Positions 5,990 to 59,464 of a stretch of 64,000 nt of DNA are shown piece after piece. The number at the start of each line of letters is the position of its first letter. Positions within the stretch are counted from its first letter, which is position 1. The notes beneath the pieces were generated by a model. It worked only from the letters and a program-made list of their open reading frames with translations. It was not told the DNA's origin and ran no database searches. Location of the stretch: NCBI RefSeq assembly GCF_030028105.1, contig NC_092378.1:35148715-35212714 (forward strand), read 5' to 3'. Position numbers and translations under genes: made by a program. The DNA comes from Mobula birostris (Eukaryota).

Positions 5990-6138
5990 CACAAACACAA
6001 GAAAATCTGCAGATGCTGGAAATTCAAAGCAACACACAGTCCTGATGAAGGGTCTCGGCCCAAAATGTCAACTGTTAACTCTTTTCCATAAATGCTTCCT
6101 GGCCTGCTGAGTTTTTCCAGCATTTTGTGTGTGTTGCT
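5990..6138. mobile_element. Short Penelope-like end element with a decayed + strand hammerhead
   Basis: Family motifs tctgcagatgctggaaattc...cctgatgaagggtctcggccc...ccagcattttgtgtgtgttgc; ggaggt flanks both sides. Confidence 0.7.
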
Positions 6139-9100
6139 GTGGGAGGTAACACCTTATCCCCAGCAATAGTTCTATAACTAGAGTTATAAGTAAGAATTTG
6201 GGAGAAATGTCTTAAAGAAGGGTTAGATTGTGGAATTTACTAAAACAGAAATAATCTTTGTTTATAGTATTATATGAAGTAGGGCGGCAAGAGTCCCATG
6301 GTAAGTTTAATTACCAACAAGTCCTCTAAATTCTGTGGTAACTACTTTTGCTGTGACACCTCCCAAAGTGCAGATGATTGAACCGTCCATCCCTTTTATC
6401 ATTAGTTAGAAGAGGCTGATTATCTCAGTAGCTTTGAACAATTAATTGAAAATGCGCAAGTGGTAGTTAACTGAATTCATTGCTTGTGGTTGAGTGTGTA
6501 TCTGCAGGGAGTGGGGCAGGGGGTGGGAATGTAGGGGTGCCATGTCGCTCTATAGTACATCTGCAATGACTGGTTTGTTAAGCTTCTCACTTGGGGGCAC
6601 TACACCACCGACAGCTGCTGCCTTGTGAAAACAATGAGTGGCATGTTTATATTGACAAATTATTTACTGAGGTTTTGTTAGGGTGAAGAACCTTCCCCCG
6701 CCCCCAGCACTATCTTTGTTTGATAGTACATTGAATATACCCTCACAAGCAGCTACGTAGTGCACTAAAACTGGCCACCAGGCAGAACACATAATCATCA
6801 AAGGGTAAATACTTTGTTGTATTTTAGCTTAATTTTTTTGAAATACCCCATCTTTCTCCATATTAATACTCCTAAATATGACATTTTTGAGGGATTGGAG
6901 TACTGGTCATTGTACTGTGAAACTATTTAAATTACAAATGCGACCACATTTCAGTAATAATTCTTTGGTTGTCAACCACTTCAGGACATCCCAAGCTTAT
7001 GGAAGGTATAAATGTTAAATCTTTATTTATAAGATCACCTGTTGCTATTTTAAGGAAACTGTCACAAAACCATGTTCTTTTATATTGCTGCTAAAATAAA
7101 GGGTTTCCATTGTTTTAGTAAGAAAATACATGGTAAAAATGGAAGGAAGGTAAAAAGCTACAATATGTTTGTTCAGTCATATTTAGAAGACTAAAATAAT
7201 GTTCCTTCTACTAACAAACAACCACTGTTCTTTGCCTGTTCTTTCTGAGCATCGAGATCCTGAGGGCAGGTGAGATGAATTTGCTTTGCAGAAACATCAG
7301 AAATGAAAAGGGGTAAGCTGCTGAGAGCAGTGAAACCTAATTTAAACTGCAGAGAGAGATGGGGAGGATGCACTAACATTATAAAATGGACATTGGGCCA
7401 GCTTTTATCTGATGCAGAAGCTACAAGCTTCCGGGACCACAGAGATCACAAGCAATGGAAGATCCTTGAACAATGCACTGAAGAAGCTCTGTTCTAAAAC
7501 TGAAATGTTGGACTGTTAGTAAAGTTTCACCCACAGCTTTTAACAGCTGTCAGTGCTTTGGTGGTTTTTAAATGTTTCTTAATGACAAATATTTAAAAGC
7601 ATATTTCATTTATAGGTTTTAAAATTTGAATGTAAAAATGAATGAAAACCATAAATTACTAATTTATAAATTACTAAAAACAATAAATTATGCCAGGATA
7701 TCTTTGAAAAAAGGTACAGTATTTGCATTCCACTTCCCTGTGGCCCTTCAATCTACCATTGAAATCAGTTCCAACCTTTTGCATTGATCTGAGTGACTAC
7801 TTCCCCAGAATAAACGCTGAACTCTGTTTTAGGACCACATCCAATGAATGTGTAGTAAGTTCTGAGCTTCCTGGGCACATATACAGCTAGGGAAAGGCCA
7901 ATCAATTTCAGAAAGACTATAGTATAAAGCAAAGTAGAAACTAAATTAAAAAATATGAAACCTAATTGAAACTCAAAATATTTCTGTCATAAAAGTTAAG
8001 AAAGTGGAGGGATAGCATGTAAAAGCAAGCCAGCAAAACATGATTCTTTGACATGGATTCATTCCAGGCTGAAACTTTTTTCACTTTACCAGAGGTGAGG
8101 GTATTTAGGCTAAGTTATATCACCAATCTCTAACCTTATTCACAATTACTACAATACAGTGATTACAGTAACATATGGTGCCTAGTAATAAGAGTATCTA
8201 GTGACGGGAGAAGTCGTGATAAGGTGGAGAATGTTATGAAGTGCTATCTTTGATCCTGAAATATTATCTGTGAGCAATAGTTGAGCAAATTGGAAAGAAA
8301 TTCTGTTCCCCTTATTTTTGTTTCTGCACTTTGGAAATGCCTTTTTGAGGACTGGCATGCCACGCCTCTGATGCAGTTGAGGCTTTCATATTTCAAAAAA
8401 TGAATCCTTAGCTATTCTATCTCTGAGATTTTATTGGCTCCCGTGGATAACATGGAATCAGATTGGTAGAACAAAAACTTAAACTTGATCAGTAGTACTG
8501 AATTTGCATAGGTGATCTCATCCAAAGCTCAAGTCCATTGGTTTTATTGAATCTATTAGCATTGATGTTTTGAAGCTGCTGCTTTGGCCATAGCGGGAAA
8601 GGTTCAGTGGAATCCTCTCAATATCTCCAATGTGTTACCTTCAACAAAGAAAATGTTGTTTCTAACTGGGCTTGTGTGCGTACTGTTATTTACCATGTCA
8701 GGGACAAACTGGGATTGGTAAATATTACACAAATAAGACTGCAACAGAGGATTGTAAAAGTTGACCTCTAGGTCAGTGCAAGACCTCAAAAATGAGCATG
8801 CTTTTATGCACTGTATCTTTCACTTAGCAACCGTCAAAATGCAGAAGCAAAGCAATGAGGCTATATTGGTAAAAGAAACATCCTGTTTTCCCACACACAG
8901 AGAAGAATCTGTCACTGGAGAGGAAGATTGAAAAATTAATCATCCCAGTCATTCATGCTCATCTTTAGTAATCCAGCTGTAGAAAAACACTAGCCTCAGC
9001 TGAAGAATCAAAAGATACCCTGAAGATGAGTGAGCTAAATGTAAGGGGAACCATACCATAGTTGATCTTCATGTTAACATAATTAAGCCAAAAAATAATT

Positions 9101-9211
9101 GCATGGATCTTCAAGTGCTACGCTCAACATTGAAAATGTGTGCTTCAAGATAAAAAGTGCATACAGAATGAAACTGGCGAATGTTCAGTTGGAGGATTTG
9201 ACAAAAGCACA

Positions 9212-9438
9212 TAAAATGCTGGAGATACTCAGCACATCAGGCAGTATCTGTGGAGGGAAATGAACAGTCGATGTTTTGGGCCGAGATCCTAACCATATAT
9301 TCTGGGTTTTGATGAAGAGTCTCAGCCTAAAACATTAACTATTCATTTCCTTCCATAGATGTTGTCTGACCTGCTAAGTTCTTCCAGCTTTTTGTGTGTT
9401 GTTCCAGAATTCCAGCATCTGCAGTCTGCCTTGTTTTC
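9212..9438. mobile_element. Palindromic Penelope-like end element, older subfamily
   Basis: Inverted arms aaaatgctggag...tgaacagtcga / attcatttcc...ccagctttt; 11-bp TSD acaaaagcaca at 9201-9211 and 9439-9449. Confidence 0.75.
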
Positions 9439-10074
9439 ACAAAAGCACAAGTGCTTTTTAATCAAATGGAAGGGTGGTCATCAGGAAGTGGAATGAGATG
9501 GCCCTTAGAGGCTTTCATGCTAAATACCCACACGAGACCTAATGGGTAGCCTGAGTATAGATAGAGAATGGTCACCTCAGGAATAAACCAGATATTACCA
9601 TCCACCGTATGTGTTGATAGGCATTTACAAAGATTAGCAAAGGTGGCTACATAAAGGTTGTCAAAACTGAAATTGCGGATTTCAATGGGCTCAATGAGTT
9701 GATATATTTTTGAAAAGAGATCTTGAAATGGGAGGTGTCAGTCTAGGCAAGGTGAAACGTAGAACAGAGAGCTGGAGGTTAATCTTTTGATCTTAAGATA
9801 GAGTTGGAAGAAATACATAATTACTCTAAATATAATGTGTTGCAAAACCTTAGCAATATAATTTAAATGTTTTGAACTTAGTTGTTGTATCTGTTCCTGG
9901 AAACTAGTCCTCATAATGACCGTTTTAAAATTGCCTGATGTTCTTCGCACTAGTTATAATTAAGTTTATTATATTTTATGTGTCATCAGTGTTTAACCTC
10001 CCTTATCAAAAATGGTGCATATTGTGCATTCTTAATGCTTGCCAACAAACTATAAAATTTTAGCTTGTGATATG

Positions 10075-10610
10075 CACTCAGTGGCCACTTTATTAGGTAC
10101 ATCTGTACACCTGCTCATTAACGCAAATATCTAATCAGCTAATCATGTAGCAGCAACTCAATGCATAAAAGCATGCAGACATGGTCAAGAGTTGTTGTTC
10201 AGAACAAGCATCAGAATGGGGAAGAAATGTGATCTTAGTGACTTTGACTGTGGAATGATTGCTGGTGCCAAATGGGGTGGTTTGAGTGTCTCAGAAACTG
10301 TGATCTGTTGGAGTTTTCACGCTCAACCATCTCTAGTGTTTTTAGAGAATGGTATAAAAAACATCCAGTGAGTAGCAGTTCTGTGGGTGAAAATGCCTTG
10401 TTAAGGAGAGAGGCCAGAGGAAAATGGCCAGACTGGTTCAAGCTGTCAGGAAGGTGACATAAACCATCATTACACAGTGATGTGCAGAATAGCATCTCTG
10501 AACGCAGAACACATCAAATGGGTGGGCTGTAGAAACAGAAGAATGCAAACATATACTCAGTGGCCACTTTATTAATTATCTCTTGTATCTAATAAAGTGG
10601 CCACTGAGTG
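10075..10610 (+). mobile_element. Internally deleted Tc1/mariner element
   Basis: TIRs cactcagtggccactttattag / ctaataaagtggccactgagtg; TG/TA flanks; decayed transposase N-terminal HTH (MGKKCDLSDFDCGMIAGA...RSTISSVFREW). Confidence 0.85.
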
Positions 10611-11780
10611 TATTTTGTGAAATCAGTCTGGCTCATTATGTAATACAGTTGTCCTGTAGCTCATGGTAAAAGGATTTTGGAGTGACACAATTTGAGCAAT
10701 GCAACTCCTCCATATATATTAGTTGTTACTTTGTCTTGAGATTGTTAACTACATAGACATTTTATTTGGCTGTTTTCCATGTCCTTCATGAAAATTCTGA
10801 GTTCACAGGTACTTGGAGAGCACTGCTCATATCTCAACTTCACTTAGGAACAGTGTGGGGATTATCTTAATCTAGGGTTCTATCATCAAACCATATTGAA
10901 TCTTTGTATTATGGGTTTCATGAAAGTGTAATGTATTATGAGGTTCATAAATTATTCCAGTACTCTGTGCTGTCTTTATTCCAATGACGTTATAGGTATT
11001 CCTTGGCCCAAAAAAATGACAATTTTCCTGTATCTGCAGTATTTTTGAATTTTTATTCAGAATCTAAATCAAGACTATTATCACTGACATATGTTTGTAA
11101 CGACACAAAAACAAGATTAATGATTCCTGTCGAAAACGCATGGGCAGATATGGAACTAAGCTAAAGCAAAAGCTCAGCATCTCCAGAAGTATCCTATTGA
11201 CCATCATGAGGCTTGAACTGTTCTGGAGGAGGTTGTTAATACATCCTTAGCTTAAAAAAATGAGAGTGCTCCTCTATTGCATTTTAGTGGCTTTGATCAA
11301 CTAAAGCTCCAGCCTGCCACTGACTGGGTTGCTAGAAGTGGAACAGGAGGTGCTCCATGGACAGCTTCCCCAATCTGCTGAACTCTGAGTTCAGCTGGTC
11401 AAAGGACCTTTCGCTTGAACCTTCTGTCTATACTATTGCCACCATTCTTGATGACAGTAACCATCTGGCTTCAACTAACCACTACCAACAATCGGCAATG
11501 TATATCATCTGACAGAGTCAGAACTGGAGTGCTATACCAGGAACTATCAACAGAAAGTCCTATGTTTCAATGGTTCAGTTATGATTTAAATAACAGTTAA
11601 TTTTAACAATTGACTTTGGTGATCCCTGATGCCTTGGATGCTTGACCATCTCTACTCATGCTCCTGAGAGTTGAGCTTCTACTGGTTAGATGGAAGAAAG
11701 CTGCGACTTTATTGAAGGTAGTTTACATGGCCATGATGTACCATCTCAAGCAACTCCGGGTTTTGAGGTTGCAGTCTGAG

Positions 11781-11965
11781 GTAATGTGGTCCAGGTTACA
11801 ATATGGCACTAGCTGATGTAATGTGGTCCAGGTTACAATGTGGCACTAGCTGATGTAATGTGGTCCAGGTTACAATATGGCACTAGCTGATGTAATGTGG
11901 TCCAGGTTACAATGTGGCACTAGCTGATGTAATGTGGTCCAGGTTACAATGTGGCACTAGCTGAT
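11781..11965. repeat. Minisatellite, 5 x 37 bp
   Basis: Unit gtaatgtggtccaggttacaatRtggcactagctgat; copies start at 11781, 11818, 11855, 11892 and 11929. Confidence 0.95.
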
Positions 11966-14249
11966 GATGTTTGGAGATGTGGCTGTGGGGTGCTGCATGC
12001 ATTGTCCTTGGATGGTTAACATGTAGAGTGTGTATTATAAAGTAGGAGTAAAATGAGGAAGAGAAATCCCTGATGCACAAATTTCATGACAAAGTCTCCT
12101 TCAGTTATATGCATTACTCCCTCTCCATAATACTCAGCTTGGCTTCCTTAAAGTGGGAACAGAGAGAAGACGACTGTTTTTGCATTGTTTGCTGATGTGT
12201 GCAATTAGGGAGAAATGTTGGTTTTCAGAGCTATTTTAAAAATGGTAGAATATATTGTGGGTAATATGTGAGCTGTTGGAAAGTAGGAAGTCCATTGTAC
12301 ATAAGCAGGGAGAAGACAAGTTAAAGTGAAAAGTGATGCTGTGATTTAGGATTAATTTAATGAATCAGTAAGACAACTCGCATGAGTATCCCCTGAGGAA
12401 ATAATGGATTGTTTATGAGACCAGTTTTTAGGAAGTGTTTAGATACAATTCCTATCTTTTTAAATTTGCACCAACAATTTTAAATAATTTAAACACTAAA
12501 ATTATTTCTCTGTAAAAGGTGCATCAGCCTCTCTGTGTTAACTGACAGAAGATGCTGATAATTGCACTCCAATTATTGTATGCTGTAGTTGTGACCTGTG
12601 CAATGGGTTTTATTGTTGCACATGTTTCAAAACAAATTAGATATCTGATTATACTTTTATTTCATGAATAGTTATCTGACTTTTACTAAGATGATTGCAG
12701 CCAGCAAAACTGACTTTATCAAAAATCAAAAACATGATTTTACTTGTCCTTGATTATGGATAATTTCTCGTATTAAATAGGGCCTCATTGATGTTAAATG
12801 TCACAAGTAAGGGATTATTCTGACGTTATTTTAAATACATATTCTCTTACACAAAATAGAGTAGATCCAGTCCTTTTTTTCACTTTTGTTCCTTGCCAAA
12901 CACACCTTTCAACAGCACACAGTTAAGATGGGGAATTCTGGGTGATCAGACTGGTCGCAGGCAACAGTAATGCTTGGCTGGCCGTCATAGGTGACTACTT
13001 CTGTGATCATTCCTTCCCCCCACAGAGTAATGCTGACCTCCTCTTGGTGCCACCCTGTGCAGCACAGATAAGGTCAGGAAATCAGCAGGAGAGGTGATTC
13101 AGCTTGCACCACTTTCCTTTCTGCTCTGTACAGTGCCAATCTGATGTTTACTTGGGCAACAATCTTCACATTGCTCTGTTTTAATGGGAGGAAAAAGAAT
13201 CTAGATTAAACCAATCTATCCTGCACGAGCTTGCCATTTACTTGCAGCTGTATTTTTATTTTGATTAACCTTTTTGCTAATGTACTATGTTTCATCACTC
13301 TCAACTGGTTTTGCAGACAATGTCAAAGTCCATAGGTGTAGTGACTTGCAACTTCATGTTGAGACTTCATTGAAACTTAGCCACTGTGTATGAAGCAGAC
13401 AGCAGATGATTAATAACACAGGTCATAATTATGCTTTACGTAAAATTCTCCTTCAAGGCATGGTTAGGCTCACAGTCCTGTTTTAATAACAAATGGCATC
13501 TCTAGATTAATGTGATTGTGGTGCTTCAGTCAGTGATTTGTACCTGAGATTTAAGCACAACTATTTAAATAACAAAGTTACAAAATTTGTGAAGAGAATT
13601 TTTCACGAATATTATTTTGAGCTTGTGCATTAAGACTTAAACCTGAAGTTTTTAACCTGGAATCTCCATCTGAAAGTTCACATTTGTTTCGAGTGCAATT
13701 ATTTTGAACCTAAAAAGAATAGCTTTTTGTAATATTTCTTCCCTCCATTTAAAATCTTAACTTTAACCACTTACTGCATGGACATGCTAATGTGTGCAAT
13801 GTGTGGCATAAATTTGTATGTGTAGTTGCCTCATTTAGTCAACTGCCAATTTTGATTGAAGTGCTTAGTGGAGCAGTTGCTTCCTAGCCCCCAGGCCAAT
13901 AAGGAGAATGGAGTGGGATTTTTTTCTGTACAAGTCTGTGCAATTGGTGTTGAAGTGTCAATGTGATGAGGCTGTCATTCCTGCGAGGGAGGGAGTATAA
14001 AGAGCAAGACTTGATCAACAAGCCCCTGGCCCCAAGCAGAGCTGACAGGGATCTGGGGTAATAGGTTACCTGCCTGCTTACTCACCCTAGAAGTAATATT
14101 TCCACACCCTTTTGGAGAAGGGGGGGGAATAAATGGAAGATTTATACAATGCCTGATATATTGCTGAGTGCCTTCATTATCATGGGGCACCCTAAATGAT
14201 GTCTGAAAAATTATATTTGAAAAGTACTATTTTTTTATATTCTGTACAG

Positions 14250-14313
14250 GTTCGTCATTTGGGAGGCATTCCGCTCATCTTGGACAACTGCAACATTGAT
14301 GATAATAACCCTT
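14250..14313 (+). CDS. ATXN10: ATXN10 penultimate coding exon (equivalent to human exon 10), VRHLGGIPLILDNCNIDDNNP+T
   Basis: U2-type acceptor tttttttatattctgtacAG at 14230-14249. Translation matches the ataxin-10 C-terminal motif (human VNELDGIPLILDNCNISDSNPF, from memory). Ends in phase 1 at GTATCCTTT. Too short for the ORF track. Confidence 0.95.
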
Positions 14314-14322: not shown

Positions 14323-15164
14323 TTCAAAGTATCTACTATGTTGGTTTTCTGTAAAAAGGCCTTTTGCATCACCTGATAACACTTAACCAAGATAAATGGT
14401 TGTGAAATATAATGCCAGCAATTTTATATACTGCATGTCTACACAATATTAAAAAGTGTTGTTTCTTGGTATTGTTGGATCAGCATTTTAGTGAAATTTG
14501 TGATTGCCAAAGATGTGGATGCTTGCATTTTCTGACCTCTTGGGAGCATTTGGTGTTTGCGATCCGGGTTTAGGATGCAAAGTTAAATGGAGTAGCATAT
14601 GCCTAAAATTGCAAAGCAAGTCTGCTTTGTACCTAGAAAAAAGATTTTACCAGTGTATTTTGTCTGTGATTTGACTGACTTGGAGAAACTTGGAGCTCCG
14701 CTTTGGAGGAAGTCTTTTGCCTTGATCTTTAATTCTCCTGAGTGTCATCATTTAAAAACTGCATGATTTCAGAAATATTCTTTCTACTATTCTTGCCAAA
14801 ATGAATCATTTTATAAGTCATCATATTATACTAGCTTTGATTATGCCCACCTATTCAACCTATCAAAAGCCTTAGTTCACATTCTACATTCTCCTCACAG
14901 TTTACTGTCCTAACTACCTTTGTTTCTTGAGTAAATTTGGATATATTGCATCCCATACCTTTAAATTGCTGCCCCAGTACTAATCCCTGGGCCACCCCAA
15001 TTAGCAATGTTGTTTTGAAACCTACTTTCAAGACCTTCAATGAACCACATACCTGGTTTTGTCAATTTTATTGTTCCTGCATAGACCAAAGTTATTGTAT
15101 CCTTTTCCACTCTGCAGCCTTGTGGAGATATCTTTATTCTAACACCAGACAGACAAGTCAGTTA

Positions 15165-15381
15165 CAAGAGAAAATCTGCAGATGCTGGAAGGAAATCTGA
15201 GCAACGTGCTGTAGGGATTCAGCAGGCCAGGCAGCATCTATGGAAAAGAGTACAGTCGACGTTTCGGGCCCAAACCCTTCAGCAGGACAAGCCAGTTATT
15301 TGTCTTCCAATCACAAACAAGAGAAAATCTGCAGATGCAGGAAATCCAGCCTGCTGAGTTCTTCCAGATTTTGTGTGTGTT
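15165..15381. mobile_element. Compound Penelope-like end element (two partial units)
   Basis: Two acaagagaaaatctgcagatgc starts; flanking repeats gacaagYcagtta (15152-15164, 15286-15298) and gccagttatt (15382-15391). Confidence 0.7.
15255..15288 (-). ncRNA. Minimal type I hammerhead-like motif, A6C core variant
   Basis: Minus strand GTC-CTGCTGA-AGGGTTTGGGCCC-GAAAC-GTC-GAC; stems I and II can pair. Confidence 0.5.
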
Positions 15382-17417
15382 GCCAGTTATTCGTTTTAAT
15401 TTGTTCATTGGATTTGTTTTTCAACTCATTGATTTAACCTGTTTACCCTCCTCAAAGTTCCATTTTCACTGGATCCTTGAATTTCTCCACTAATTCCTAA
15501 GAATAAAATTTTAAAAAGAAGAAAATTCTGAAAATACTCAGCAAGCCGTATTACTGACAAAAGAATAGGGATGTCAGCCTTGCTTTGGTCTCTACAGGTA
15601 CTATTTGCTCTGTGGTTTTATTTCAGCATTTTCAGTATTAGTATTTCAGGTTTCCTGCATTTGCTGTATTGCACTTTTGGGTTCTGTTTTTCAAGCATCT
15701 TGTCCATCTTTACCTTAAATATGTTTTCATGTGAAGTTGAATGACCATGAAAGAGCACCACCAAGAGAAAAGGAATGGAATGGTGAAAATCTTTCTTTTA
15801 TTTGTACATGACTTATTACTGATACCCTCTATCCCCGCCCCCCACCTTCTTCACCAGTACCTTCACCTAATGGATCTCACTAAAGTTCACGTAAATCAGT
15901 TTGAAGAAAGGGAGTGAACTGATCTTAAAGCTCTTCTTCGACCATTTGATTATCTGTGAGCTTGTCAATTTACTGCAGTTATCTCCATTGTCTGAAGTGC
16001 CTAAGAATGCCTCAGGGATAAAGTTAGGGGTTAAGGAGAAAGAATTGTTGTGAATCAAAGTTTAATTAAAGGCCAGGACATTGCTGGCCAAGAGGTATAA
16101 TTTAGTTTAAAGAAAATAAAGAGCTAAATAGAGATGTCTGAAAACAAGTATAAAAGGTTTCATTTTATTTTGAGGTTTAGCAAAGAAAATACTTGGGCAA
16201 TGAAAGGAATAGAGTTTTTTTAATGTAGTGATTATTGAAATATATAATGACTAATAGCACTGCTGATTTTCCTCCTCTTTAATTGGGTGGACAACATTTA
16301 AATGGTTTGCAGGGTTGGGAAAATGGTACAATATTGAGGATTGTTGTGTTTATGTCTTCTGCTATATTCTGAGGTTTGATTGTGTTGTTAAATTGGAGGA
16401 GGTATGGTTAGACTATATTTTGCCTGTGATACCTAGGTAACTGTTTACAGACAGCTGGATTGCTTTTGATTTGAGATAGGGGCAATCCAATTAGTCACAC
16501 AGTATTTCAAGATCAGAGGAACTGAGAACAAAGGATAAATTGCATATAGACCAAACTAAATTGATACTGAGAATATTAAATGACGATAAATTGCTTTATG
16601 ATTCAATTTTTTTTCAGCGTAGCCACTGATTAAAAATGTTTTGCCACTTGTAATTACCTTCCTTAAGTAATGACAGAAGTTGAATAAATACTCTGAATGT
16701 TTCCATGATCAGCATCAACTCAGTCTGTTGAAGTTAAATTTGAGTACATCCTAATATATAGTATAATGTTTGACTAGATTATTCTTAGATCAAAGAGAAA
16801 AACAATTAGAATCTAGGATCTGCTGCCCTTGATCACTGCCATACTATTCTGTTGACCTTACCTGGACATACTGCTAAATGGAAGGTGGATAAGAATTAAA
16901 ATCTTGTCCTTCCAAAACCACACCCATCCCACCCCCTGTGCTTCCACTCGTAGCCATTTGCGTAGATCTTTATGCATGGTACTGGTTGACTGTCGATTGT
17001 TTCTTGCTAATAATCCTCAGTTGTTTTCAGTTACAGTTGCTTTGGTCTATGTCAGAGTAATTTGGAATGCTTGATAACTTCAGAGTTCCTGATAGTGCCT
17101 AGTGTACCTTTCTTTTTGACATGCATATGATCCATCCTCATGATAGAATGACGTTATGGACATAGAAGATGGTGCAACATGGAGTTGCTAGTAAAAACTA
17201 CAGTGTTCCAGTCCCCATTGTGGGTTAAACCACTTAGCATAGGCTTTGACTCCCTACTGTTGAAGGATCTACTGTTTTGTGACCTGCCAGGTTGTTGTCC
17301 TGACAGGCTCAATGTAGAGCCAGAGCACTGAGGATGAGAAGGTCAATTTTTCTAAATCAAAATCTATTCCATTTAGCTACAAAAGTAGAAATTAGAGCTG
17401 CATTTTTTTCCAATAAC

Positions 17418-17585: not shown

Positions 17586-19132
17586 GACTTTATTTCTTAC
17601 AACTTTCACATACATGAGAAGTAAAAATCTTTACATTATGTCTCTGTCTAAATGTGCAATGTGCAATCATAGTAATTTATAATAAATAGAACAGTCAATG
17701 TAACATAGAAATACACTCAGATCAGCGTGAGTTAATTGGTCTGATGGCCTGGTGGAAGAAGCTGTTCTGGAGCCTTTTATGCTGCGGTAAAATTTCCAGG
17801 ATGGGATGGCAGCAGCTGGAATAGATTGTGATTGGGTTCACTCGGGTCCCCAATGATACTTCAGGCCCTTTTCTCACACCTGTCTTTGTAAATGTCCTGA
17901 ATCATGGGAAGTTCACAACTACAGGTGTGCTGGGCTGTCCGCGCTACTCTGCAGAACCCTGTGATTAAGGGAGGTACAGTTCCCATACCAGGCAGTGATG
18001 CAGTCAGTCAGGATGCTGTCATTTGTGCCCCTGTAGGAAGTTCATAGGATTTGGGGGCCCATACCAAACTTCCTCAACCGTCTGAGGTGGAAGAGGTGAT
18101 GTTGTGCTTTTTTCGTCACACAGCTGGTGTGTACAGACCACGTGAGGTCCTCAGTGATGTGGATGCCAAGGAACTTAAAGCTGTTTACTCTCTCAACCTC
18201 AGATCCATTGATGTCAATAGGGGTTAGTCCGTCTCCATTCCTCCTGTAATCCACAACCAGCTCCTTTGTTTTTATGACATTGAGAGAGAGGTTGCTTTCT
18301 TGACACCACTGTGTCAGAGAGATGACTTCTTCCCTGTAGGCTACCTTGTTATTGTTTGAGATTAGGTCAATCAATGTAGTGTGGTTGGCAAATGTAATTA
18401 GCAGATTAGAGCTGTGGGTGGCGATACAGTCATGGGTATACAGGGAGTAAAGGAGGGGACTTAGTACACAGCCCTGAGGGGCTCCTGTTTTGAGAGTCAG
18501 GGGGTGGAGGTGAGGGAGCCCACCCTTACCAACCACTGGCGATCTGACAGGAAGTCCAGGATCCAGCTGCACAAGGCAGGGTCAAGGATGAGGTCTCTGA
18601 ACTTCCTGTCAAGCCTGGATAGAATTATGGTGTTGAATGCTGAACTGTAGCAGGCATGTGGGCACGTAGCAAAGTGGTTAAGGCATTGGACTAGCGCCAT
18701 GAAGGTCATGAGTTCGAGCCCCAGCGGAGACAGCGTGTTGTGTCCTTGAGCAAGACCCTTAAGGAGCAAGCGACGTCTGCGATGACACTGGTGCCAAGCT
18801 GTATCGGGCCTTGCCCTTCCCTTGGACAACATCGGTGTCGTAGAGAGGGGAGACTCGCAGCATGGGCAACTGCTGGTCTTCCATACAGAACAAAGACTTT
18901 CCACGCGCAGATCCATGGTCTCGTAAGACTTTCGGGTGCCTTAATTTAATTTAAGCAGGCATGTTGCTTAAACAGAGACAATGGTGGTTAATTTGAAGCA
19001 GGGCACTCTACACTCAGGGAGAGGGAAAGATTAAAAATGTCTGTAAGCACACCTGCCAGTTGTGCTGTGCACATCCTGAGTACCCGCACTGGGAAGCCCG
19101 CAGCCTTGCGGCTGTCCACTTGTTAGAATCAA
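17586..19132 (-). mobile_element. Rex1/Babar-type LINE, decayed, bounded by gaps, with a nested SINE
   Basis: ORF 18042..18572: GAPQGCVLSPLLYSLYTHDC...NVIKTKELVVDYRR...SFKFLGIHIT; YSSAFNTI motif in ORF 18497..18916. Confidence 0.88.
18660..18953 (+). mobile_element. tRNA-derived SINE with CORE-like domain and RTE-like tail
   Basis: Box A gtagcaaagtggttaagg, box B gagttcgagccc, gtgtccttgagcaagacccttaa, (TTAAT)n tail; TSD agcaggcatgt at 18649-18659 and 18954-18964. Confidence 0.85.
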
Positions 19133-23132: not shown

Positions 23133-23308
23133 TCAAAGTTGCTGGTGAACGCAGCAGGCCAGGCAGCATCTCTAGGAAGAGGTACAGTCGACGTCTCAGC
23201 CCAAAACGTTGACTGTACCTCTTCCTAGAGATGCTGCCTGGCCTGTTGCATTCACCAGCAACTTTGATGTGTGTTTCTTGAATGTCCAGCATCTGCAGAA
23301 TTCCTGTT
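23133..23308. mobile_element. Palindromic Penelope-like end element forming a ~62-bp hairpin
   Basis: Arm 23133-23194 pairs with 23206-23267 around an 11-nt loop; near-identical to the copies at 36173 and 59146. Confidence 0.85.
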
Positions 23309-34150: not shown

Positions 34151-35504
34151 TGACATTTATATTCATCTCAATTTGCATGCATTCTAATGTGCAAATGTAT
34201 CCATTGGTATTAAATTTCTTCTACAGAACAAAGAGTATTAGGTAACTGCATCATTTTTGTTGCATCATTCAACCTCTTCCATATTTCATTGGTGTTATAG
34301 CTAGTTTTGTGAGACAAAAGCCAACTGATAAGGTAACTGACAAGACCTGGTCATGTTCTCTTTTAAGCATTCTTGTAATTTTGAGGATACTTTCTTTTAA
34401 TACCTAGTGGTTTTTTTTGCATGAAACCAGTTGTGGTGAACTCACTATTCTATCATCATCATCTGAGTAATTTTGTTTGGCAAAGTAGTTTGTCAACATC
34501 AACATAAAAGTTTGACTGATCACTTCCACTTTAAATCTAATTTATTAATATTCAATGCAGTGCATTACATTGTGGCCACAATAGCAGTTTTCCTATTCTC
34601 TTTTTCTCATATTAACTGAAAATGTTATTAATCTATGAATTTTAGGAAAAATACTGTTTAAAAAAAACTGGAAGTGACAATAAAATGCTTCCTTTGCAGA
34701 ATTTGTCAACACCACTGTGGCTATTTCTGTGTACTTCAATCACATGAAAGGACAAAAAAATACAGACTTTCATAACCCAGTGGCCAGTGTGTGGATTTCA
34801 TACCTATTATCCTTCAGTGCAATTTCACAAGCATCACAATACTCTTAAATAGTGGAATGAGATTGGCCATTGCACTCTAAGTAATTAAGATCATCTAAGA
34901 TAACCACACAATTGTAGTTATGGTTTTATAATGAATTATGTGAGCATGACAACTCAAAGGTTAGCCTTTACTTCAGTTTGCGTACACTACTGAAACTTTG
35001 GAGGGACAATCAGATTCTGTCCATTCAAACTCTCTATTTCTGCTGAGCCATTCACAATGAGTAATTTTAGTTACTTTAGAACGTAGAAGTAAATGGCACA
35101 AGAATAGGCTCTCGGCCAATGATGTCTGTACCAACCGTAAGCTAACCTAAACTAATCCCATCTTCCTCCATCCTCTGCTTGTTCATTTGTTTCTCTAAAT
35201 GCCCCTTAAATGTTGCTATCATATCTGCTTTCACCACTTCCACGGCAGTGTATTGCAGGCACCTCCCACTCTCTGTATAAAAATAAAACTTGCCTTGCAA
35301 GTATCTCTTTTAAACTCTCCCTCTTTCACCTTAAAACTATACCCTCTTTGATATTTCCACCCTGAAGAAAAGACTCTGAACGTCTACCCTTATCAATGCC
35401 TCTCATAATTTCATATACTTATATTAGGTTACACCCCCCCACCCCCTCAGCATCCAACACCACAGAAAAAATAATTCAAGTTTGTCCAACCTCTCCTTGT
35501 AGCT

Positions 35505-35760
35505 ACAAATAAAAAATGCTGGAGGAACTCAGCAGGTCAAGCAAGATGTAAGCAGGGAAATGAACAGTTGACATTTCGGCTCAAAACCCATCATCAGGAT
35601 TGGAAAGAAAGTGGGCAGAAGCCAGAATGCTAGAAGGAGGAAGATGGGGGAGTGATGAGAGAAGGAGGAAGGAGGAAGATGGAGTGATGGGAGAAGCAGT
35701 GAGGTGATAGGTGAAAAAGGTAAAGGGCTGAAGAAGGAATGTGATAGGAGAAGACACTTC
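35505..35760 (-). mobile_element. PLE 3' end fragment (purine-rich tract plus hammerhead-like motif)
   Basis: aaaatgctggaggaactcagcagg...gacatttcggctcaaaacccatcatcagg followed by a purine tract shared with 60537-60700 and 1-60. Confidence 0.7.
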
Positions 35761-36172
35761 CAACTGATTTATATTTTCTGACAACCTTCTTCACTATCCT
35801 CAGCTCTGTCAATTTTTGTAGTATCTGCAAATGTACTAACCAGCCCATCTATGTTTTCATCCAAATCATTTATATATCACAGAGATCCCAGCACTGAACA
35901 CTACTGGTCACAGATCTCCAGTCAGATTAACACTCCTCCACTACCTCCTGTCTTCCATGGCCAAGTAAATTTTGAATCTAATCTATCAAGTCTCTGTGAA
36001 TCCCATGAACATTAATCTTTTGGATCTGCCTACCATATGGGACCTTTCTGAATGCTTTACTAAAGCCCATGTAAGGAATATTCACTGCCTACATTTTCCA
36101 CCACCTTAAAACTCTCAATCAAGTTAGTAAAACATGACTTCCTCGCACAAAGCCAACTATCCCTAATAAGTT

Positions 36173-36358
36173 AACAACAGGAATTCTGCAGATGCTGGAA
36201 ATTCAAGCAACACACATAAAAGTTGCTGGTGAACGCAGCAGGCCGGGCAGCATCTCTAGGAAGAGGTGAACAGTGGACGTTTCAGGCCGAGACCCTTCGT
36301 CAGGACTTCCTAGAGATGCTGCCTGGCCTGCTGCGTTCACCAGCAACTTTTATGTGTG
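36173..36358. mobile_element. Young palindromic Penelope-like end element with a 14-bp TSD
   Basis: Inverted arms; TSD atccctaataagtt (36159-36172) / atccgtaataagtt (36359-36372). Confidence 0.88.
36272..36307 (-). ncRNA. Minimal type I hammerhead ribozyme motif, intact core
   Basis: Minus strand AGTC-CTGACGA-AGGGTCTCGGCCT-GAAAC-GTC-CACT: CUGANGA, stem II, GAAA, palindromic ACGU stem III, GUC site; one stem I mismatch. Confidence 0.65.
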
Positions 36359-40384: not shown

Positions 40385-40682
40385 GTCTTGCAAGACCATG
40401 GACCTGCGCCTGGAAAGTCTTCACTCTCCAGGACGCAGGCCTGGGCAAGGTTGTTATGGAAGACCAGCAGTTGCCCATGCTACAAGCCCCCCCTCTCCAC
40501 GACACCGATGTTTTCCAAGGGAAGGGCAAGGGCTGATACAGCTTGGCACCAGTGTCGTCGCAGAGCACTGTGTGGTTAAGTGCCTTGCTCAAGGACACAA
40601 CACGCTGCCTCGGCTGAGGCTCAAACTCACAACCTTCAGATCGCCAGTCGAATGCCTTAACCACTTGGCCACGTGCCTACAC
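40385..40682 (-). mobile_element. tRNA-derived CORE-like SINE (same family as 18660), antisense in the likely ATXN10 3' UTR
   Basis: Reverse complement highly similar to 18660-18930; 9-bp TSD ttcatagtc at 40376-40384 and 40683-40691. Confidence 0.88.
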
Positions 40683-44049: not shown

Positions 44050-46015
44050 CAAGGCAAGTTTGTTTAATGTTAGTTCCAGTACACAAGTGTAAAGGAGAAC
44101 AGAATAATTGTTACCCTGGATCCGATACAGCACAAAAAAAACACAATAGGGTAAAGAGCACAATAATAACAATAAAAAGCTACAATAAATATAAATACAT
44201 TAGATAGCTTATGTACATAAGATTGATTGTATGTCCATAAGTGATACCAGACACAGCAGTGTCTGTACATAAGCTGACTGAAAGGAAATGATAAAGTAGT
44301 GGTAGTTAGAGGTGTGGAGGGGTGGAGCAGTTGATCAGCTCTACTGCTTGAGGAAAGTAACTGTTTTTGAGTCTGGTGGTCCTGACGTGGATGTTATGTA
44401 GCCTCCTTCCTGATGGGTGTGAGACAAATAGTCCATGAGCAGAGCGTATGGGATCCTTCATTATGTTCCTGGACCTTTCCCAGCATCTTTCTGTATTTAT
44501 GTCCTTGACTGCAGGTAGGCTGGTGCCGGTGATGTATTGGACAGTTTTAACTACCCGTTGTAGAACCTTCCTGCCCATTGCAGTGTAGTTTCTGTACCAC
44601 GCAGTGATGCAGCTTGTTAGGATGCTCTTATTGCACATCTGCAGAATGATATGGATATACTGTAGATGTGCATAGCCCAGTTCTCTTCAGCCTCCTCTGA
44701 AAGTTGAGGCGTTGGTGAGCTTTCGTGATTGTGTGGAATGTATTCTGGGGCCATGAGAGGTTGTGTGAGATCTGCACTCCCAGGAGTTTGACACTGCTCA
44801 CTGTTTCCACTGCTGTGCCACCGATGTAAAGAGAGGTGTGAGGGTGTGAGTTCTCCTGAGGTTGATAATTATTGCCTTTGTCTTGTTGACATTGAGGGGA
44901 AGTGGTTATTTGCCTGGCACCAGGCCTCAGACTCTTCCAGCTCCTCTCCATAGGCCATCTCATCGTTGTTGGTGATGAGCCCCTCCACTGTTGTGTAATT
45001 GGCAAATTTGATAATGTGATGATTTGGGTATTTGGCCATGCTATCATGTGTGAGCAGAGTATACACCAATGGGCTCAGCACACAGCCCTGGGGAGCACCC
45101 GTTTAAGAATGATGGGGAGGGAAGAGCATCCTGACTATCTGAGGTCTGTTGTTTGGGAAGTCCAACACCCGGTTGGTATTTAGACCAAAGAGTAGGAGTA
45201 TTTACACCAAGGTCTGTGGACAACATGTTGAATGCTAAACTGAAATCTAGAAACAGGATTCTGCCATAAGTGTCCTAGTTTTCTAAGTGTGTCAGGGCCA
45301 CGTGCATGACCGATGCTATGACATCTGTCATAGAACGGTTCTGTCAGTAAGCATAATGGTGATTGTCCAATGTGGCAGGAATGGAGTTTTTGATATGTGC
45401 CTTTACCAGCTGTTCAAAGCACTTCATGATGATTGGCCACAGGTCAGTAGTCATTTAGTTCTAAAGGTGTAGAGTTCTTTGGTAAAGGGGTGAGGGTGAC
45501 TAAGTTTGAAGTATGTGGGGACTGCAGCCTGGATGAGTGAAGTGTTGAAGACATCATTGAGCTTGTGTGCACACTCCCCGAGTACGCGGCTTGCGATGTT
45601 ACCTGGCTGGCCACCTTACAGGAGCTGACTCTCTGCAGAGTCCTTCTCACACCTGCTGCTGTTAGAGACAGTGGCTGCTGACCTTGGGAGGGTGGGGGGC
45701 AGTGTTGTGTTGCGTGCCGCAAAGTGTGTATAAAAATTGTTTAGAGCATCAGGGAGGGAGGCATGCTGTTTCTCCTTGCATAATCAGTAATGCCCTTGAT
45801 GCCAGTCATATATGTCAGGGATTGTTATCGGACAGGTGTTCCTGAATTTTTGAGCGTAGGTGGTCTTTAGCCACTTGATTCCTGAGATGAGGTTTCTCTG
45901 AGCTGTTCTATTACTAAGTTTGAAGGCTTTTAGTAGAGACCCACCTCAGCATTCAGCCAGGGCTTCTGGTTACCCCATGAGATTACTGTTCTTGAGGTGC
46001 CAATGCCGTTGCACA
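44050..46015 (-). mobile_element. Rex1/Babar-type LINE, decayed
   Basis: ORFs 44306..44638 (SILTSCITAWY...SGRRL...RTTRLKNSYFPQAV), 44628..45047, 44869..45081 (LSPLVYTLLTHD...IIKFAN) and 45444..45722. Confidence 0.88.
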
Positions 46016-47659: not shown

Positions 47660-48941
47660 AATATCTTTATCTTTATTGTCATTGTTGTGGAGCAATGAAA
47701 CACAGTTTAGCAGCTCAACGTTTTGCAGCATGACAAAGAATATATACATAAAATAAACTCTAAAACCTCAGGAGTGCAGTCCAAAATTAATAATATATGG
47801 ATGGGGGTGTAGGACTATTGCACACCTGCCATTACTGGAAGTGTGATGCATTTAGCTACCACCGTCTTAGGAGGGGGGCAGGAGAAGGGAAGGGGGTGTT
47901 ATACATTTCATTGCTTGTGGGTAGAAGCTGTTAAGGAGTCTCTTTGTTTTCGTCCTAAAGGCTCTGTATCTCTTCCCAGAAGGTAGAGGGGAAAACAGGT
48001 GATGTCCAGGATGAGTGGGATCCTTTGAAACACAAGTAGCCTTCTTTTGAAGTCTGCCAGTATAAATGTCTCTGAGGGAGGGTAATATTGTGCCAATAAC
48101 CCACTCTGCTACCCTCACCACCCGCTGCAAGTCCTTCCTGTTCTGTCCTGTGCAGCTGGCAAACCACACTGCACAACAGTACATCAGGAGGCTCTCTATA
48201 GTTGTCCGATAGAAGTTGATCAGCAGGTGATGAGGGAGGAGAGCGTACTTTAGCTTCCTTAGGAAATAGAGCCTCTGTTGGGCCTTCCCCACCTGATAAG
48301 AGATATGGGCAGTCCAGGTGAGGTCAGCCGAGATGTGGACGCCAAGGAACTTGAAACTCTCTACTCTCTCCACCTCTTTTCCGTATATGTGCAGAGCAGA
48401 GTGCTCGACGCGCTTTGATTTCCTGAAGTCTACTATCAGCTCCTTGGTTTTTGTGATGTTCGAGTCCAGGTTATTATGACAACACCATTCTGTCAAATGC
48501 TGTACCTCCTCCCTGTAGGCTGTCTCATCACAGTCTGATATGATAATTATTAGGGTGGTATCGTCAGCAAATTTGACAATGGTGTTGGTGGAGTGAATGG
48601 TAGAGTAGTCATGGGAGAAAAGAGAATAGAGGATGAGGCTGAGAACACACCCCTGTGGTGTACCGGTGTTCAGGATGAGAGTAGATGACGTGTGTTCTCC
48701 CATCCTGACACTTTGGGGTCTGTTACTCAGAAAATCCAGTATCCATGAGCACAGTGAACTGCCAAGGCCCAGGTTGCTCAATTTCTGCACCAGTTTGTAG
48801 GGGATGACTGTATTAAAAGCTGAGCTGTAGTCCACAAACAGCATTCTTACATAGGTGTTATCCTGATCCAGGTTTGTAAGGGCTGTGTGGAGAGCTGTGA
48901 TGACTGCATCCTCGGTCGATCTATTTGCATGATATGCAAAT
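47660..48941 (-). mobile_element. Rex1/Babar-type LINE, 5'-truncated, with an uninterrupted RT frame
   Basis: 325-aa ORF 47867..48844 ([29 protein letters not shown]); the frame is open upstream to [13 protein letters not shown] at 48940. Confidence 0.92.
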
Positions 48942-51303: not shown

Positions 51304-51839
51304 GACCCCAAATACATTAGATTGTCTTACTGTTGTTAAAAATCATTTGAATAGTTATTTTTCCTATGACTTCATCCTCCTTAATCAGATAGGATAGCTA
51401 GGTCCAAACTCAAAAAGTATAGTTACTAATTTCCACTTCCTCCTCCACCACTGCCTCAACAAATGCTGAATTCCTAATTGTGTTTGTTGAGACGTGGATC
51501 CACTCCAATTTTCCTACCGGTCCATAACAGATGCCATCTCTTTGGCTCTTCATTCAACCCTGAAACATTTGGACCCCAAATACATTAGATTGTTTTACTG
51601 TTGTTAAAAATCATTTGAATAGTTATTTTTCCTATGACTTCATCCTCCTTAATCAGATAGGATAGCTAGGTCCAAACTCAACAAGTATAGTTACTAATTT
51701 CCACTTCCTCCTCCACCACTGCCTCATCAAATGCTGAATTCCTAATTGTGTTTGTTGAGACGTGGATCCACTCCAATTTTCTTACCAGTCCATAACAGAT
51801 GCCATCTCTTTGGCTCTTCATTCAACCTTGAAACATCTG
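51304..51839. repeat. Tandem duplication, 2 x 268 bp
   Basis: Copies start at 51304 and 51572; about 7 substitutions counted by eye. Confidence 0.95.
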
Positions 51840-52295
51840 GACAGCAAAGATACATTACATCAGAATGCTTTTATTGACTACAGCTTGGCATTCAATGCCA
51901 TCATCCTCTCAATTCTAATCAATAAGCTTCAAAACCTTGACCTCAATACCTCTTTGTGCAATTGGATCCTTGATTCCCTCACTTACAGACCCTAGTCAGT
52001 TAGGATTGGCAACAGCATCTTCTCCATGATCTCTGTAAGCACAAGTACGCCACAAGGCTTTGTGCCTTGCCCCCTGCTCTGCTCGCTTTACACATATGAT
52101 TGTCTGGCTAATCACAGCTCCGATGCCATATTCAGATTTGCTGACAACAACCTCTCACTCAACATCAGCAAGATCAGAGAGCTGGTTACTGACTTCTGGA
52201 AGTGGAAACCAGAGGTCCATGAGTCAGTCCTCATTGGAGGATCAGAGGTGGAAACACCAAATTCCTCGGTGTTACAATTTCGGAGGACATCTCAC
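51758..52295 (+). mobile_element. Rex1/Babar-type LINE internal fragment (its first ~80 bp are duplicated at 51490-51571)
   Basis: ORFs 51762 (DPLQFSY...DYSLAFNAI...LCNWILD) and 52026 (TPQGFVPCPLLCSLYTYDC...FRFAD). Confidence 0.85.
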
Positions 52296-52619
52296 ATCTG
52301 AGACACAAATTCCATTCTGGACTCCAGATGGAATCCACTAGACCAGCCTCAGGGCCATTTATCCCATTCATTTAAAGAGGGATTTTCATCATGGAAATTA
52401 GATGAAAAGGTAATCCCGGTGATTTATTTTAAACACATACTTTTTTAAAAGTTTTAATAATCCCTTATTACTTTTATCTTCTGAAATAGTTCCTACTATC
52501 TTACTTTTTTCAAGAAATTTTAATAAATTTGACCTTTTGCAGAATATTGATGCTCGAAAACTTCTTATAAAGTCGTGACAGGTGAGGCCCCAACCCCACC
52601 TTTCAAATTTTATTTTTAT

Positions 52620-52885
52620 TAGCTTTTTGAGCCGCGCCACACCACCCCAGCAACCCCTGACAAACCTGATTAACTCCAACCTAATCGTGGGACAATTTAC
52701 CATGACCAAATAACCTACCGGGTACGCCATTGGACTGTGGGAGGAAAATGGAGGACCGGGGAAATCCCACGTATTCCACAGGGAGGATGTACAGAGAGTC
52801 CTTACAGAATGGCATGAGATTTGAACTCCAATCTCACTTAGCTGTAACAGCATCATGCTACCCACTACACTACCATGACACCCCA
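52620..52885 (-). mobile_element. V-SINE (HE1-like)
   Basis: Reverse complement of the head, V-domain and 3' part (ggacaatttaccatgaccaa) is homologous to 59465-59700. Confidence 0.75.
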
Positions 52886-57921: not shown

Positions 57922-58294
57922 CACGGTGGTGTCTGAAAAGAGGATGCTGTCTAAGTTGCATGCCATCTTGGCCAATGTCTCCCATCCGCTACATAATGTA
58001 CTGGGTGGGCACAGGAGTACATTCAGCCAGAGACTCATTCCTCCAAGATGCAGCACAGAGCGTCATAGGATGTCATTCCGGCCTGTGGCCATCAAACTTT
58101 ACAACTCCTCCCTTGGAGGGTCAGACACCCTGTGCCGATAGGCTGGTCCTGGATTTATTTCATAATTTACTGGCATAATTTACATATTACTATTTAACTA
58201 TTTATGGTTCTATGACTATTTATTATTTATGGTGCAACTGTAACGAAAACCAATTTCCCCCTGGGATCAATAAAGTATGACTATGACTATGACT
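57922..58294 (+). mobile_element. Rex1-type LINE 3' end, young
   Basis: ORF 57926 VSEKRMLSKLHAILANVSHPLH...RCSTERHRMSFRPVAIKLYN; aataaag(TATGAC)n tail. Confidence 0.8.
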
Positions 58295-59145
58295 TAACGT
58301 GATTTGCTATAGGAGGGATTCATACCAAGTACAGAATAATGACTGGGAAGTTCTCACAAGTGCTCCGTGAAGTAATCTGCCTGTCTATCCACTGTTCTTG
58401 GCTCCTGGGCCATTTGGTCATAGTTGGTCTTGATAATGCTGAAGAATCTACACATAGTTAACAGTAAATTGCTGGATCTCGAGCAACCACCATCCATCTT
58501 TTCCTAAATTCCACCCACCATCTTTTCCTAAATTCATGGGTTTTCTGTTGAACCTCAGGCTTCAGATGCCTGTGGAGCTATTTCTTTCCTCTTTACGTGT
58601 GGTGGAAATTCCAGTCTACAAATACCTTGTTTTTGCATTTTTTAATACCAGACTTCCATATCAAAGAGCTTGGCTCAAGGGCAATTCTTCCATGTCTGAC
58701 TTGCATTTGCAAGTCTTTTAACATTTCAAAGGCATGAAGGAACTGTGTAATTAGCACGTGAGAATATTCAATTTAAAATCCAACAGCATCCATAGATGTG
58801 CATATGGCCCAAGACAGAATCTGTGCATTGTTTTTCTTCTTTCAAAGGAATGCAGCTAATTTAAATAATATTTTTAAAAATATATAATAGAGTGTAGATC
58901 GTTTCAAATGATACAGAATATTCAAACTTTAACTATAACTAAAGGTTCAAGATTGTTTAATGGCATTTCCAGTACACAAATGTAAAGGAGAACAAAATAA
59001 TTCTTATGATTGTAACATTAAGTATGATTAAAGAAATATATGTATAAAGGTTAAAAAAAATTGTTTAGTTGATTTCAACTCTTATACAGTATGTGCTTTC
59101 GCTATGGTTCCAAGGCAGTAAAGTAAGGTGTTAAAAGCAGTAATG

Positions 59146-59285
59146 CAAACAACAGGAATACTGCAGATGCTGGAAATTCAAGCAACACACATCAAAGTTG
59201 CTGGTGAACGCAGCAGGCCAGGCAGCATCTCTAGGAAGAGGTACAGTCGACGTTTCAGGCCGAGACTCTTCGTCAGGCTGCGATC
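59146..59285 (-). mobile_element. Single-arm Penelope-like end element with a 13-bp TSD
   Basis: Near-identical to 36173-36307; TSD aaaagcagtaatg at 59133-59145 and 59286-59298. Confidence 0.88.
59244..59280 (-). ncRNA. Minimal type I hammerhead ribozyme motif (core intact, stems weakened)
   Basis: Minus strand CAGC-CTGACGA-AGAGTCTCGGCCT-GAAAC-GTC-GACTG. Confidence 0.55.
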
Positions 59286-59464
59286 AAAAGCAGTAATGTA
59301 TGTATTTGTTTTTGAGCAACTATAGATTGTACAATTTTCTTTCTCTATGAACGTTCAATAATGTTTCTCACTCAAAATGCTGAAGGAACTCAGCATGTCA
59401 GGCAGCATCCATGGGAATGGACAGTCAGCATTTCAGGTCACGACCCTTCCTCGGGATTCATGCC

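What the first reader, a model, noticed from the sequence alone, without database searches (positions are those of the whole stretch)
5990..59460. Family of short TSD-flanked Penelope-end elements carrying minimal hammerhead ribozyme motifs
Seen: at least eight related 100-260 bp elements (5990, 9212, 15165, 23133, 35505, 36173, 59146, 59368). They share (ACA)GTC-CTGAYGA-AGGGTCTCGGCCY-GAAAC-GTC-GAC(TGT), a type I hammerhead layout with a CUGANGA core, short stem II, GAAA, a palindromic ACGU stem III and a GUC cleavage triplet. Several have their own 11-14 bp TSDs, so they inserted as discrete units. Known: PLE terminal repeats carry minimal hammerheads whose palindromic stem III favours cleavage as dimers. 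Inference: these are either retrozyme-like non-autonomous elements mobilised by the PLEs seen at 60.5-64 kb, or extremely truncated PLE insertions.
Basis: partly seen in the sequence, partly recalled or inferred. Interest (0 to 1): 0.7.

Follow-up and report, generated by a model that had tools for sequence, protein, structure and literature searches.

The report
Penelope transposon stubs with decayed hammerheads
These short repeats are the cut-off tail ends of a very abundant Penelope-like jumping gene and carry its known small hammerhead-ribozyme motif, broken in every copy in this window; they are ordinary in kind, but many copies stop at the front edge of the motif rather than at its predicted cut site, which likely marks where the copying enzyme ran off or stalled on the element's RNA.

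Summary
The repeats are real. They are the 3' ends (pLTR: minimal hammerhead plus optional ~35-nt tail) of a Neptune-type Penelope-like element (PLE), not a separate retrozyme family. The same end follows RT/GIY-YIG coding DNA in long copies, and 12 of 20 young copies chosen without regard to their 5' end run into that coding DNA. One window 'element' (59368) is the displaced end of the PLE at 60.5-61.5 kb. A 1.52-Mb genome sample held 340 such ends (about 0.9 million genome-wide) and 22 intact motifs (about 58,000). None of the window copies is intact, and decay follows CpG context, not the catalytic core. No compensatory stem changes were found. Two regularities bear on mechanism. Head-to-head pairs join a tailed to a tail-less arm (39 of 45). 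5' ends pile up at the motif's first bases (21 of 80, 4.6-fold) and not at the predicted cut (1 of 80). The scan noted such stubs and this pile-up before in other genomes; an 'extra G' proposed there was inconclusive here. Known kind, modest interest.

The parts
5992..6138 (.). Two-arm PLE-end insertion: tail-only arm on minus (5992-6038) joined to a tail-less arm on plus starting at the motif's first base (6038); core broken (G12 to A); weak TSD
9212..9440 (.). Two-arm insertion: tail-less minus arm without CUGANGA, tailed plus arm with broken core; 15-bp TSD with one mismatch (9197-9211 / 9435-9449)
15164..15289 (-). Single tailed arm starting at motif position 2; A6-to-C core as in one subfamily; 13-bp TSD with one mismatch (15152-15164 / 15286-15298)
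15311..15385 (.).
23133..23308 (.). Young head-to-head insertion (tail-less minus arm, tailed plus arm) joined inside stem II/III; no CUGANGA box; weak 7-bp TSD
35501..35756 (-). Older tail-less end continuing into PLE 3' UTR; CUGANGA and GAAA present, stems broken
36173..36358 (.). Young two-arm insertion: tailed minus arm from motif position 1 (core intact, closing pair of stem I broken) and short tail-less plus arm; 14-bp TSD with one mismatch (36159-36172 / 36359-36372)
59146..59285 (-). Young single tailed arm from motif position 4 (5' strand of stem I lost) plus 8 unassigned bases; exact 13-bp TSD (59133-59145 / 59286-59298)
59368..59466 (-). Tail-less end with broken core; inferred 3' end of the PLE body at 60528-61481, displaced by a later insertion
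59467..60527 (.). Later insertion splitting that PLE: dispersed repeat head plus 12.9 copies of a 66-bp unit; no hammerhead core found in it
60528..61481 (-). Decayed older PLE body (3' UTR, endonuclease, linker and RT N-terminal fragments)
63479..63919 (+). Decayed PLE fragment (RT C-terminal region), opposite strand

Best explanation
The repeats are 5'-truncated 3' ends of a high-copy Neptune-type Penelope-like retrotransposon, and they were likely made by its own reverse transcriptase, which would start at one of two sites about 35 nt apart behind the hammerhead motif and often stop after 100-140 bases. Shown here: the end is the one that follows the RT/GIY-YIG ORF; it has two fixed 3' ends (about positions 100 and 135, counted from the motif's first base); TSDs run to 13-15 bp; head-to-head pairs join one tailed and one tail-less arm; 5' ends pile up at positions -3 to +13; copies decay without sparing the core. 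Inferred: both target nicks prime a cDNA, one from each start site, and the two cDNAs are joined, often through short self-complementary words of the motif, which gives the hairpin insertions. Inferred and least certain: the pile-up is run-off at an RNA 5' end at the motif's first base (about 40%), against stalling or annealing on the motif's own palindromes (about 45%) or a block at a splice-acceptor-like site (about 15%). The hammerhead is kept in the active master elements; in the stubs it is a passenger, and its cleavage product is rarely the template.
For: Same end directly behind RT and GIY-YIG coding DNA, stop codon 294 nt before the motif. Full-length pLTR-ORF-pLTR copy L065, where the tail reads on into the ORF region. 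12 of 20 young copies picked on the tail only reach coding DNA; 3 of 20 stop at positions 1-2. Bimodal 3' ends. 60 head-to-head against 11 tail-to-tail pairs; 39 of 45 classifiable pairs tailed/tail-less, 15 pairs unclassified; TSD score of 8 or more in 18 of 44 against 10 of 880 shuffled flanks. 21 of 80 young arms end at -3..+13, rate ratio 4.6 over flanking stretches, p 2e-6, 0 of 5000 simulations reach it; 1 of 80 at positions 30-38 around the cut; 6 of 340 over all subfamilies. Non-CpG divergence core 43/768 against downstream 336/4833, p 0.19; G12-to-A in 32 of 75 CpG against 1 of 53 non-CpG contexts. Literature: two internal RT start sites, both strands cut and extended, hammerhead mutants still insert (PMC11167929); truncation, inverted copy and one-sided tail are typical of PLEs.
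Against: Ordinary truncation does not predict a preferred stop, so a fixed-start short RNA contributing part of the copies is not excluded. Two arms of one insertion are not independent; with tailed arms only the count is 11 of 51. TSDs were not recovered in 26 of 44 pairs. 6 of 45 pairs break the tailed/tail-less rule. The extra G expected from a capped RNA is inconclusive: 15 of 41 (p 0.016) but 17 of 56 (p 0.13). The in vitro work cited is on a Poseidon-clade element, not Neptune. Breakpoints come from local alignment and are uncertain by a few bases.
Confidence: 0.85

Rival explanations
1. The short copies are a SINE-like non-autonomous family: a ~135-nt RNA starting at the motif's first base is transcribed from short copies and mobilised in trans by the PLE protein.
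For: 5' ends cluster at the motif's edge; own TSDs; very high copy number; PLE proteins act in trans on pLTR-flanked DNA (PMC3846280, passages).
Against: Short and long copies share the same subfamily sequence; no shared leader among 67 non-inverted short copies; 5' ends scatter over 17 nt and beyond; two-arm junctions differ from copy to copy.
Confidence: 0.09
2. They are non-LTR retrozymes: monomers cut from tandem transcripts by dimeric hammerheads, circularised and reinserted.
For: Type I minimal motif with palindromic stem III; retrozymes are related to pLTRs and were reported in one cartilaginous fish (bioRxiv 10.64898/2026.07.22.740005).
Against: No regular head-to-tail array among 22 close same-strand pairs; the one near-regular triplet is three unrelated insertions; ends do not map to the cut site; arms meet head to head, and three window pairs are predicted to fold into long hairpins that mask the motif.
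Confidence: 0.04
3. The stubs were full-length insertions later cut down by deletion or recombination (solo pLTRs).
For: Solo pLTRs without TSD are reported in rotifers; internal deletions exist (L065 3' pLTR).
Against: TSDs directly abut short copies that are 98-99% identical to each other; inverted arms and unassigned junction bases point to the insertion step.
Confidence: 0.02

Closest known systems
Minimal hammerheads (min-HHR) in pLTRs of metazoan PLEs (Cervera and De la Pena 2014, PMC4209133; parts 1-2 of 4 read)
   Same: Type I motif, bulged base before stem II, palindromic positions 15.2-16.2, no loop 3, thousands of single motifs ascribed to truncated PLEs, pairs 100-700 bp apart on opposite strands, reported for Neptune elements of fishes.
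   Different: Stem II is 4 bp here (7-8 bp in the Schistosoma examples); no covariation among subfamilies here; about 58,000 intact motifs estimated against about 9,000 in Xenopus (different descriptors, so not like for like).
Insertion units of EN+ PLEs, Neptune type: 5'-truncated copies, adjacent inverted copy, one-sided 30-40-bp tail (Craig et al. 2021, passages; Arkhipova et al. 2013, passages)
   Same: RT with DKG motif, CX4CXXC linker, C-terminal GIY-YIG; partial tandems; head-to-head arms; tail on one end; TSDs.
   Different: TSDs 12-15 bp against 8-10 bp in the rotifer examples; no microsatellite targeting noticed in the flanks read (not tested formally); a preferred 5' stop at the motif is not described in the passages read.
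PAc (Poseidon of Anolis) internal RT initiation (Frangieh et al. 2024, PMC11167929; parts 1-2 of 4 read)
   Same: Two start sites bounding the tail, in an AC-rich stretch downstream of the hammerhead; no sign that the cleaved RNA is the usual template.
   Different: Different clade; in PAc the ORF starts inside the motif, while here an in-frame stop lies between the motif and the long frame of L065.
Animal non-LTR retrozymes (Li et al. 2026 preprint, parts 1-3 of 5 read)
   Same: Non-coding, pLTR-related, type I hammerhead.
   Different: Defined by head-to-tail tandem units each with a hammerhead; not seen here.

Membership tests
EN+ Penelope-like element (parent) | RT followed by C-terminal GIY-YIG endonuclease in one ORF | tested here: met
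   RVT_1 E 2.4e-5 and GIY-YIG E 1.7e-4, both below Pfam's curated cut-off; YIDD, GVAMG, DKG motifs; the long copies read carry frameshifts, so order is shown but no unbroken ORF
EN+ Penelope-like element (parent) | pLTRs in direct or inverted orientation with optional 30-40-bp tail | tested here: met
   L065 pLTR-ORF-pLTR; bimodal 3' ends; 39 of 45 pairs tailed/tail-less
Neptune clade | CX2-5CxxC linker between RT and EN | tested here: met
   CX4CXXC before the GIY-YIG motif; shared with Nematis
Neptune clade | RT phylogeny places it with Neptune | not tested
   No named reference PLE proteins were fetched; clade name rests on the linker motif
min-HHR of PLEs | Conserved core CUGANGA/GAAA/UH with stems I and II and palindromic 15.2-16.2 | tested here: met
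   Met by subfamily majorities and 22 intact copies in 1.52 Mb, 0 in control; not met by any window copy
min-HHR of PLEs | Compensatory changes in stems | tested here: not met
   Six subfamily majorities keep the same stems; departures are CpG decay or one-sided G-C to G-U
min-HHR of PLEs | Self-cleavage as dimer or with protein help | not testable with these tools
   Only folding energies
Non-LTR retrozyme | Head-to-tail tandem units, each with a hammerhead | tested here: not met
   None in the window or among 22 close same-strand pairs in 1.52 Mb; the rest of the genome was not scanned
Non-LTR retrozyme | Unit boundaries at the cleavage site; circular RNA | tested here: inconclusive
   Genomic 5' ends at positions 30-38: 1 of 80 and 6 of 340; circular RNA not testable with contig-only runs

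The most novel reading that the evidence does not exclude
The stubs are a genomic record of a 'strong-stop'-like intermediate: the PLE transcript begins at the first base of the hammerhead (a YYANWYY initiator-like word lies there in all subfamilies; motif recalled), the RT starts only 100 or 135 nt downstream and runs off the 5' end, and these short cDNAs, singly or as tailed/tail-less twins, were inserted hundreds of thousands of times. Full-length copying would then need read-through tandem RNA or a template jump, which would explain why PLEs need partial tandems.
Probability: 0.35. Interest if true: 0.55.

Novelty: new member of a known kind. Interest (0 to 1): 0.27.

Why it matters
In kind this is known. 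The value lies in scale and statistics: roughly 0.7 million insertions and tens of thousands of intact motifs in one genome give a large natural record of how PLEs integrate, a mechanism only partly reconstituted. Two counts are directly useful: the tailed/tail-less pairing supports priming from both target strands at two start sites, and the lack of 5' ends at the cut site argues that ribozyme-cleaved RNA is seldom the template, which agrees with the in vitro result for PAc. If the pile-up marks the RNA start, one 5' RACE experiment would locate a vertebrate PLE promoter.

Tried and rejected
Rfam scan of the window at E up to 1: 4 matches, none a hammerhead family; the motif is too minimal for those models. 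Cleavage-site origin of the stubs: rejected. Spliced template with a shared first exon, by analogy with the D. virilis intron that ends at helix I: a pyrimidine tract and AG lie at the same place here, but 67 non-inverted short copies share no leader and show no intron-less junction to upstream PLE sequence, and many keep the AG and bases before it. Cap-derived extra G: inconclusive. RNA: no RNA holder listed on record; 6 runs with guessed RNA status were laid, all contigs, which cannot show starts or strand; two contig joints land on the motif's first base without GT..AG ends, 50 further joints were not shown; no weight given. L152 triplet as a tandem array: rejected. One own-genome DNA search returned nothing. 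Sequence look-up in earlier findings returned nothing. Literature searches gave no paper on this family or on a 5'-end pile-up at the PLE hammerhead; subscription papers and Repbase are not in that library, and supplements of the papers read were not seen, so absence from print is not shown.
Full report
Observation. All eight listed places hold related sequence, and a ninth stub lies at 15311-15385. Positions below are counted on the sense strand from the first base of the hammerhead's stem I (position 1); the predicted cut lies between 32 and 33. Only three copies keep both CUGANGA and GAAA, and each has a broken stem I; a strict descriptor finds none intact in the window. TSDs are clear at 59146 (13 bp exact), 9212, 15165 and 36173 (13-15 bp, one mismatch), weak at 5990 and 23133, not found at 15311 and 59368. 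Five of the nine are head-to-head pairs of arms.

Parent element. The genome is 4.0 Gb; that it is a shark or ray is recalled and echoed by earlier scan notes, not tested. The 30 best matches to the 59146 copy are 98-100% identical and share the tailed end, but their other ends are ragged, from about 132 to over 1,400 nt. Longer copies continue through a 294-nt 3' UTR into GIY-YIG and RT coding DNA (Pfam hits are below the curated cut-offs). A CX4CXXC linker precedes the endonuclease, the mark of Neptune and Nematis clades. L065 is a pLTR-ORF-pLTR copy whose 5' pLTR reads through the tail into the ORF region and whose 3' pLTR stops before the tail. In the window, the 59368 piece and the body at 60528-61481 are adjacent on 6 other copies, so they are one PLE split by a 1.07-kb insertion; 35505 also continues into 3' UTR.

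Abundance. 153 stretches of 10 kb at round positions of the large contigs (1.52 Mb without N) hold 340 ends; the reversed sequence holds 0. That extrapolates to about 0.9 million ends (bootstrap by stretch 0.76-1.04 million), about 0.74 million insertions and 2.2% of the bases. 22 motifs are intact, 0 in the control, about 58,000 genome-wide (36,000-88,000). Small scaffolds were not sampled.

The ribozyme. Among 139 arms spanning positions 1-100, position 7 of the core is the most variable, as in hammerheads, and the other losses fall on CpG sites. In the six clusters of 6 or more arms, non-CpG divergence is 43 of 768 in the core and 336 of 4833 downstream (p 0.19); G12 is lost in 32 of 75 CpG and 1 of 53 non-CpG contexts. 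So inserted copies are not selected for catalysis, while subfamily majorities keep the motif. One subfamily has A6C in 12 of 16 arms, a natural variant that shifts metal preference (PMC7151607, abstract). Stems show no compensatory change. In an intact copy the minimum-energy fold keeps stems I and II only as a short fragment and not in 195 nt of context; the ACGU self-duplex is -3.1 kcal/mol; three two-arm window copies fold as long hairpins of -95 to -126 kcal/mol. Activity is untested.

Ends. 3' ends are bimodal at about 100 and 135. There are 60 head-to-head and 11 tail-to-tail pairs; of 45 classifiable pairs 39 join a tailed and a tail-less arm, 5 are both tail-less, 1 both tailed; 15 were unclassified. 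TSD scores of 8 or more occur in 18 of 44 pairs against 10 of 880 shuffled flanks. For 5' ends I used only young arms (88% identity or more, reaching position 85, at least 35 nt) from the random sample and from 20 copies picked on the tail alone (every second row, one replaced): 21 of 80 end at -3..+13, 4.6 times the rate of the flanking stretches (p 2e-6; 0 of 5000 uniform simulations give such a 17-nt window); 1 of 80 ends at 30-38; with tailed arms only, 11 of 51 and 0. Over all subfamilies 6 of 340 start at 30-38. Of the 20 tail-picked copies 12 reach coding DNA.

Mechanism. For the Poseidon element PAc, RT starts at two internal sites that bound the tail, both target strands are cut and extended, and hammerhead mutants still insert (PMC11167929, parts 1-2 of 4). 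Applying this here is inference: each nick primes a cDNA, one from each site, and joining of the two gives the hairpin insertions; junctions often sit on the motif's self-complementary words. The pile-up at the motif's edge also appears in single-arm copies with abutting TSDs, so arm annealing alone does not explain it. Run-off at an RNA start fits the edge at -3 and an initiator-like word at position 1 (motif recalled), but the extra G expected from a cap is inconclusive (15 of 41, p 0.016; 17 of 56, p 0.13). In D. virilis an intron ends at this very place and the start lies upstream; no shared first exon or intron-less junction was found among 67 non-inverted short copies. Sequencing runs were contigs only and could not decide.

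Comparison. Minimal hammerheads in PLE pLTRs, mostly as single motifs of truncated copies and as close opposite-strand pairs, are described (PMC4209133, parts 1-2 of 4). Truncation, an inverted copy and a one-sided tail are standard PLE features (passages). Retrozymes are defined by tandem units (preprint, parts 1-3 of 5), which were not seen. Searches found no paper on the 5' pile-up, within the limits of that library; supplements were not seen. Earlier notes of this scan report the same stubs and pile-up in other genomes; they are unchecked and not counted as support.

Verdict. Real, a new member of a known kind, best explained as truncated PLE ends (0.85). Interest 0.27. The boldest open reading, run-off cDNAs marking the PLE's RNA start, has probability about 0.35 and interest 0.55 if true.

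Noticed in passing
window 59467-60527: A dispersed repeat head (related copy at about 52669-52884 and in many other loci) followed by 12.9 copies of a 66-bp unit, inserted into a PLE pLTR; it looks like a tRNA-type SINE whose 3' part was tandemly amplified (recalled resemblance).
   Followed up: partly
window 10072-10615: Short palindromic repeat with arms also at 10072-10101; 10549-10615 scores below threshold to Rfam mir-9256 on both strands, typical of a small inverted-repeat transposon.
   Followed up: no
window 27357-30043 (minus): Nearly intact LINE with a 571-aa open RT frame and upstream endonuclease-like frames (CR1-like, recalled).
   Followed up: no
window 2750-3442, 18042-18581, 44306-45074, 47867-48940, 51996-52301: Several decayed non-LTR RT fragments of another LINE type.
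   Followed up: no
window 18657-18929 and 40385-40681: Two related copies on opposite strands with a tRNA-like stretch (Rfam tRNA just below threshold at 40611-40673); likely a SINE.
   Followed up: no
window 62-166 (minus): 79% match to the 5' ORF region just behind the tail of the full-length PLE copy L065.
   Followed up: no
random-sample cluster of 16 arms, window 15164-15289: A whole subfamily carries A6C in the hammerhead core and still amplified widely.
   Followed up: partly
L051:2641-2863: Local tandem of a 48-nt piece of the pLTR (positions 24-74) at an inverted junction of a long PLE copy.
   Followed up: no
L231:194-261: One young tail-less arm starts exactly at the predicted cleavage site; a possible rare copy of cleaved RNA, single case.
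   Followed up: partly
window 11776-11966 and 51304-51842: Tandem repeats of 37 bp (5.2 copies) and 268 bp (2 copies), unrelated to the finding.
   Followed up: no
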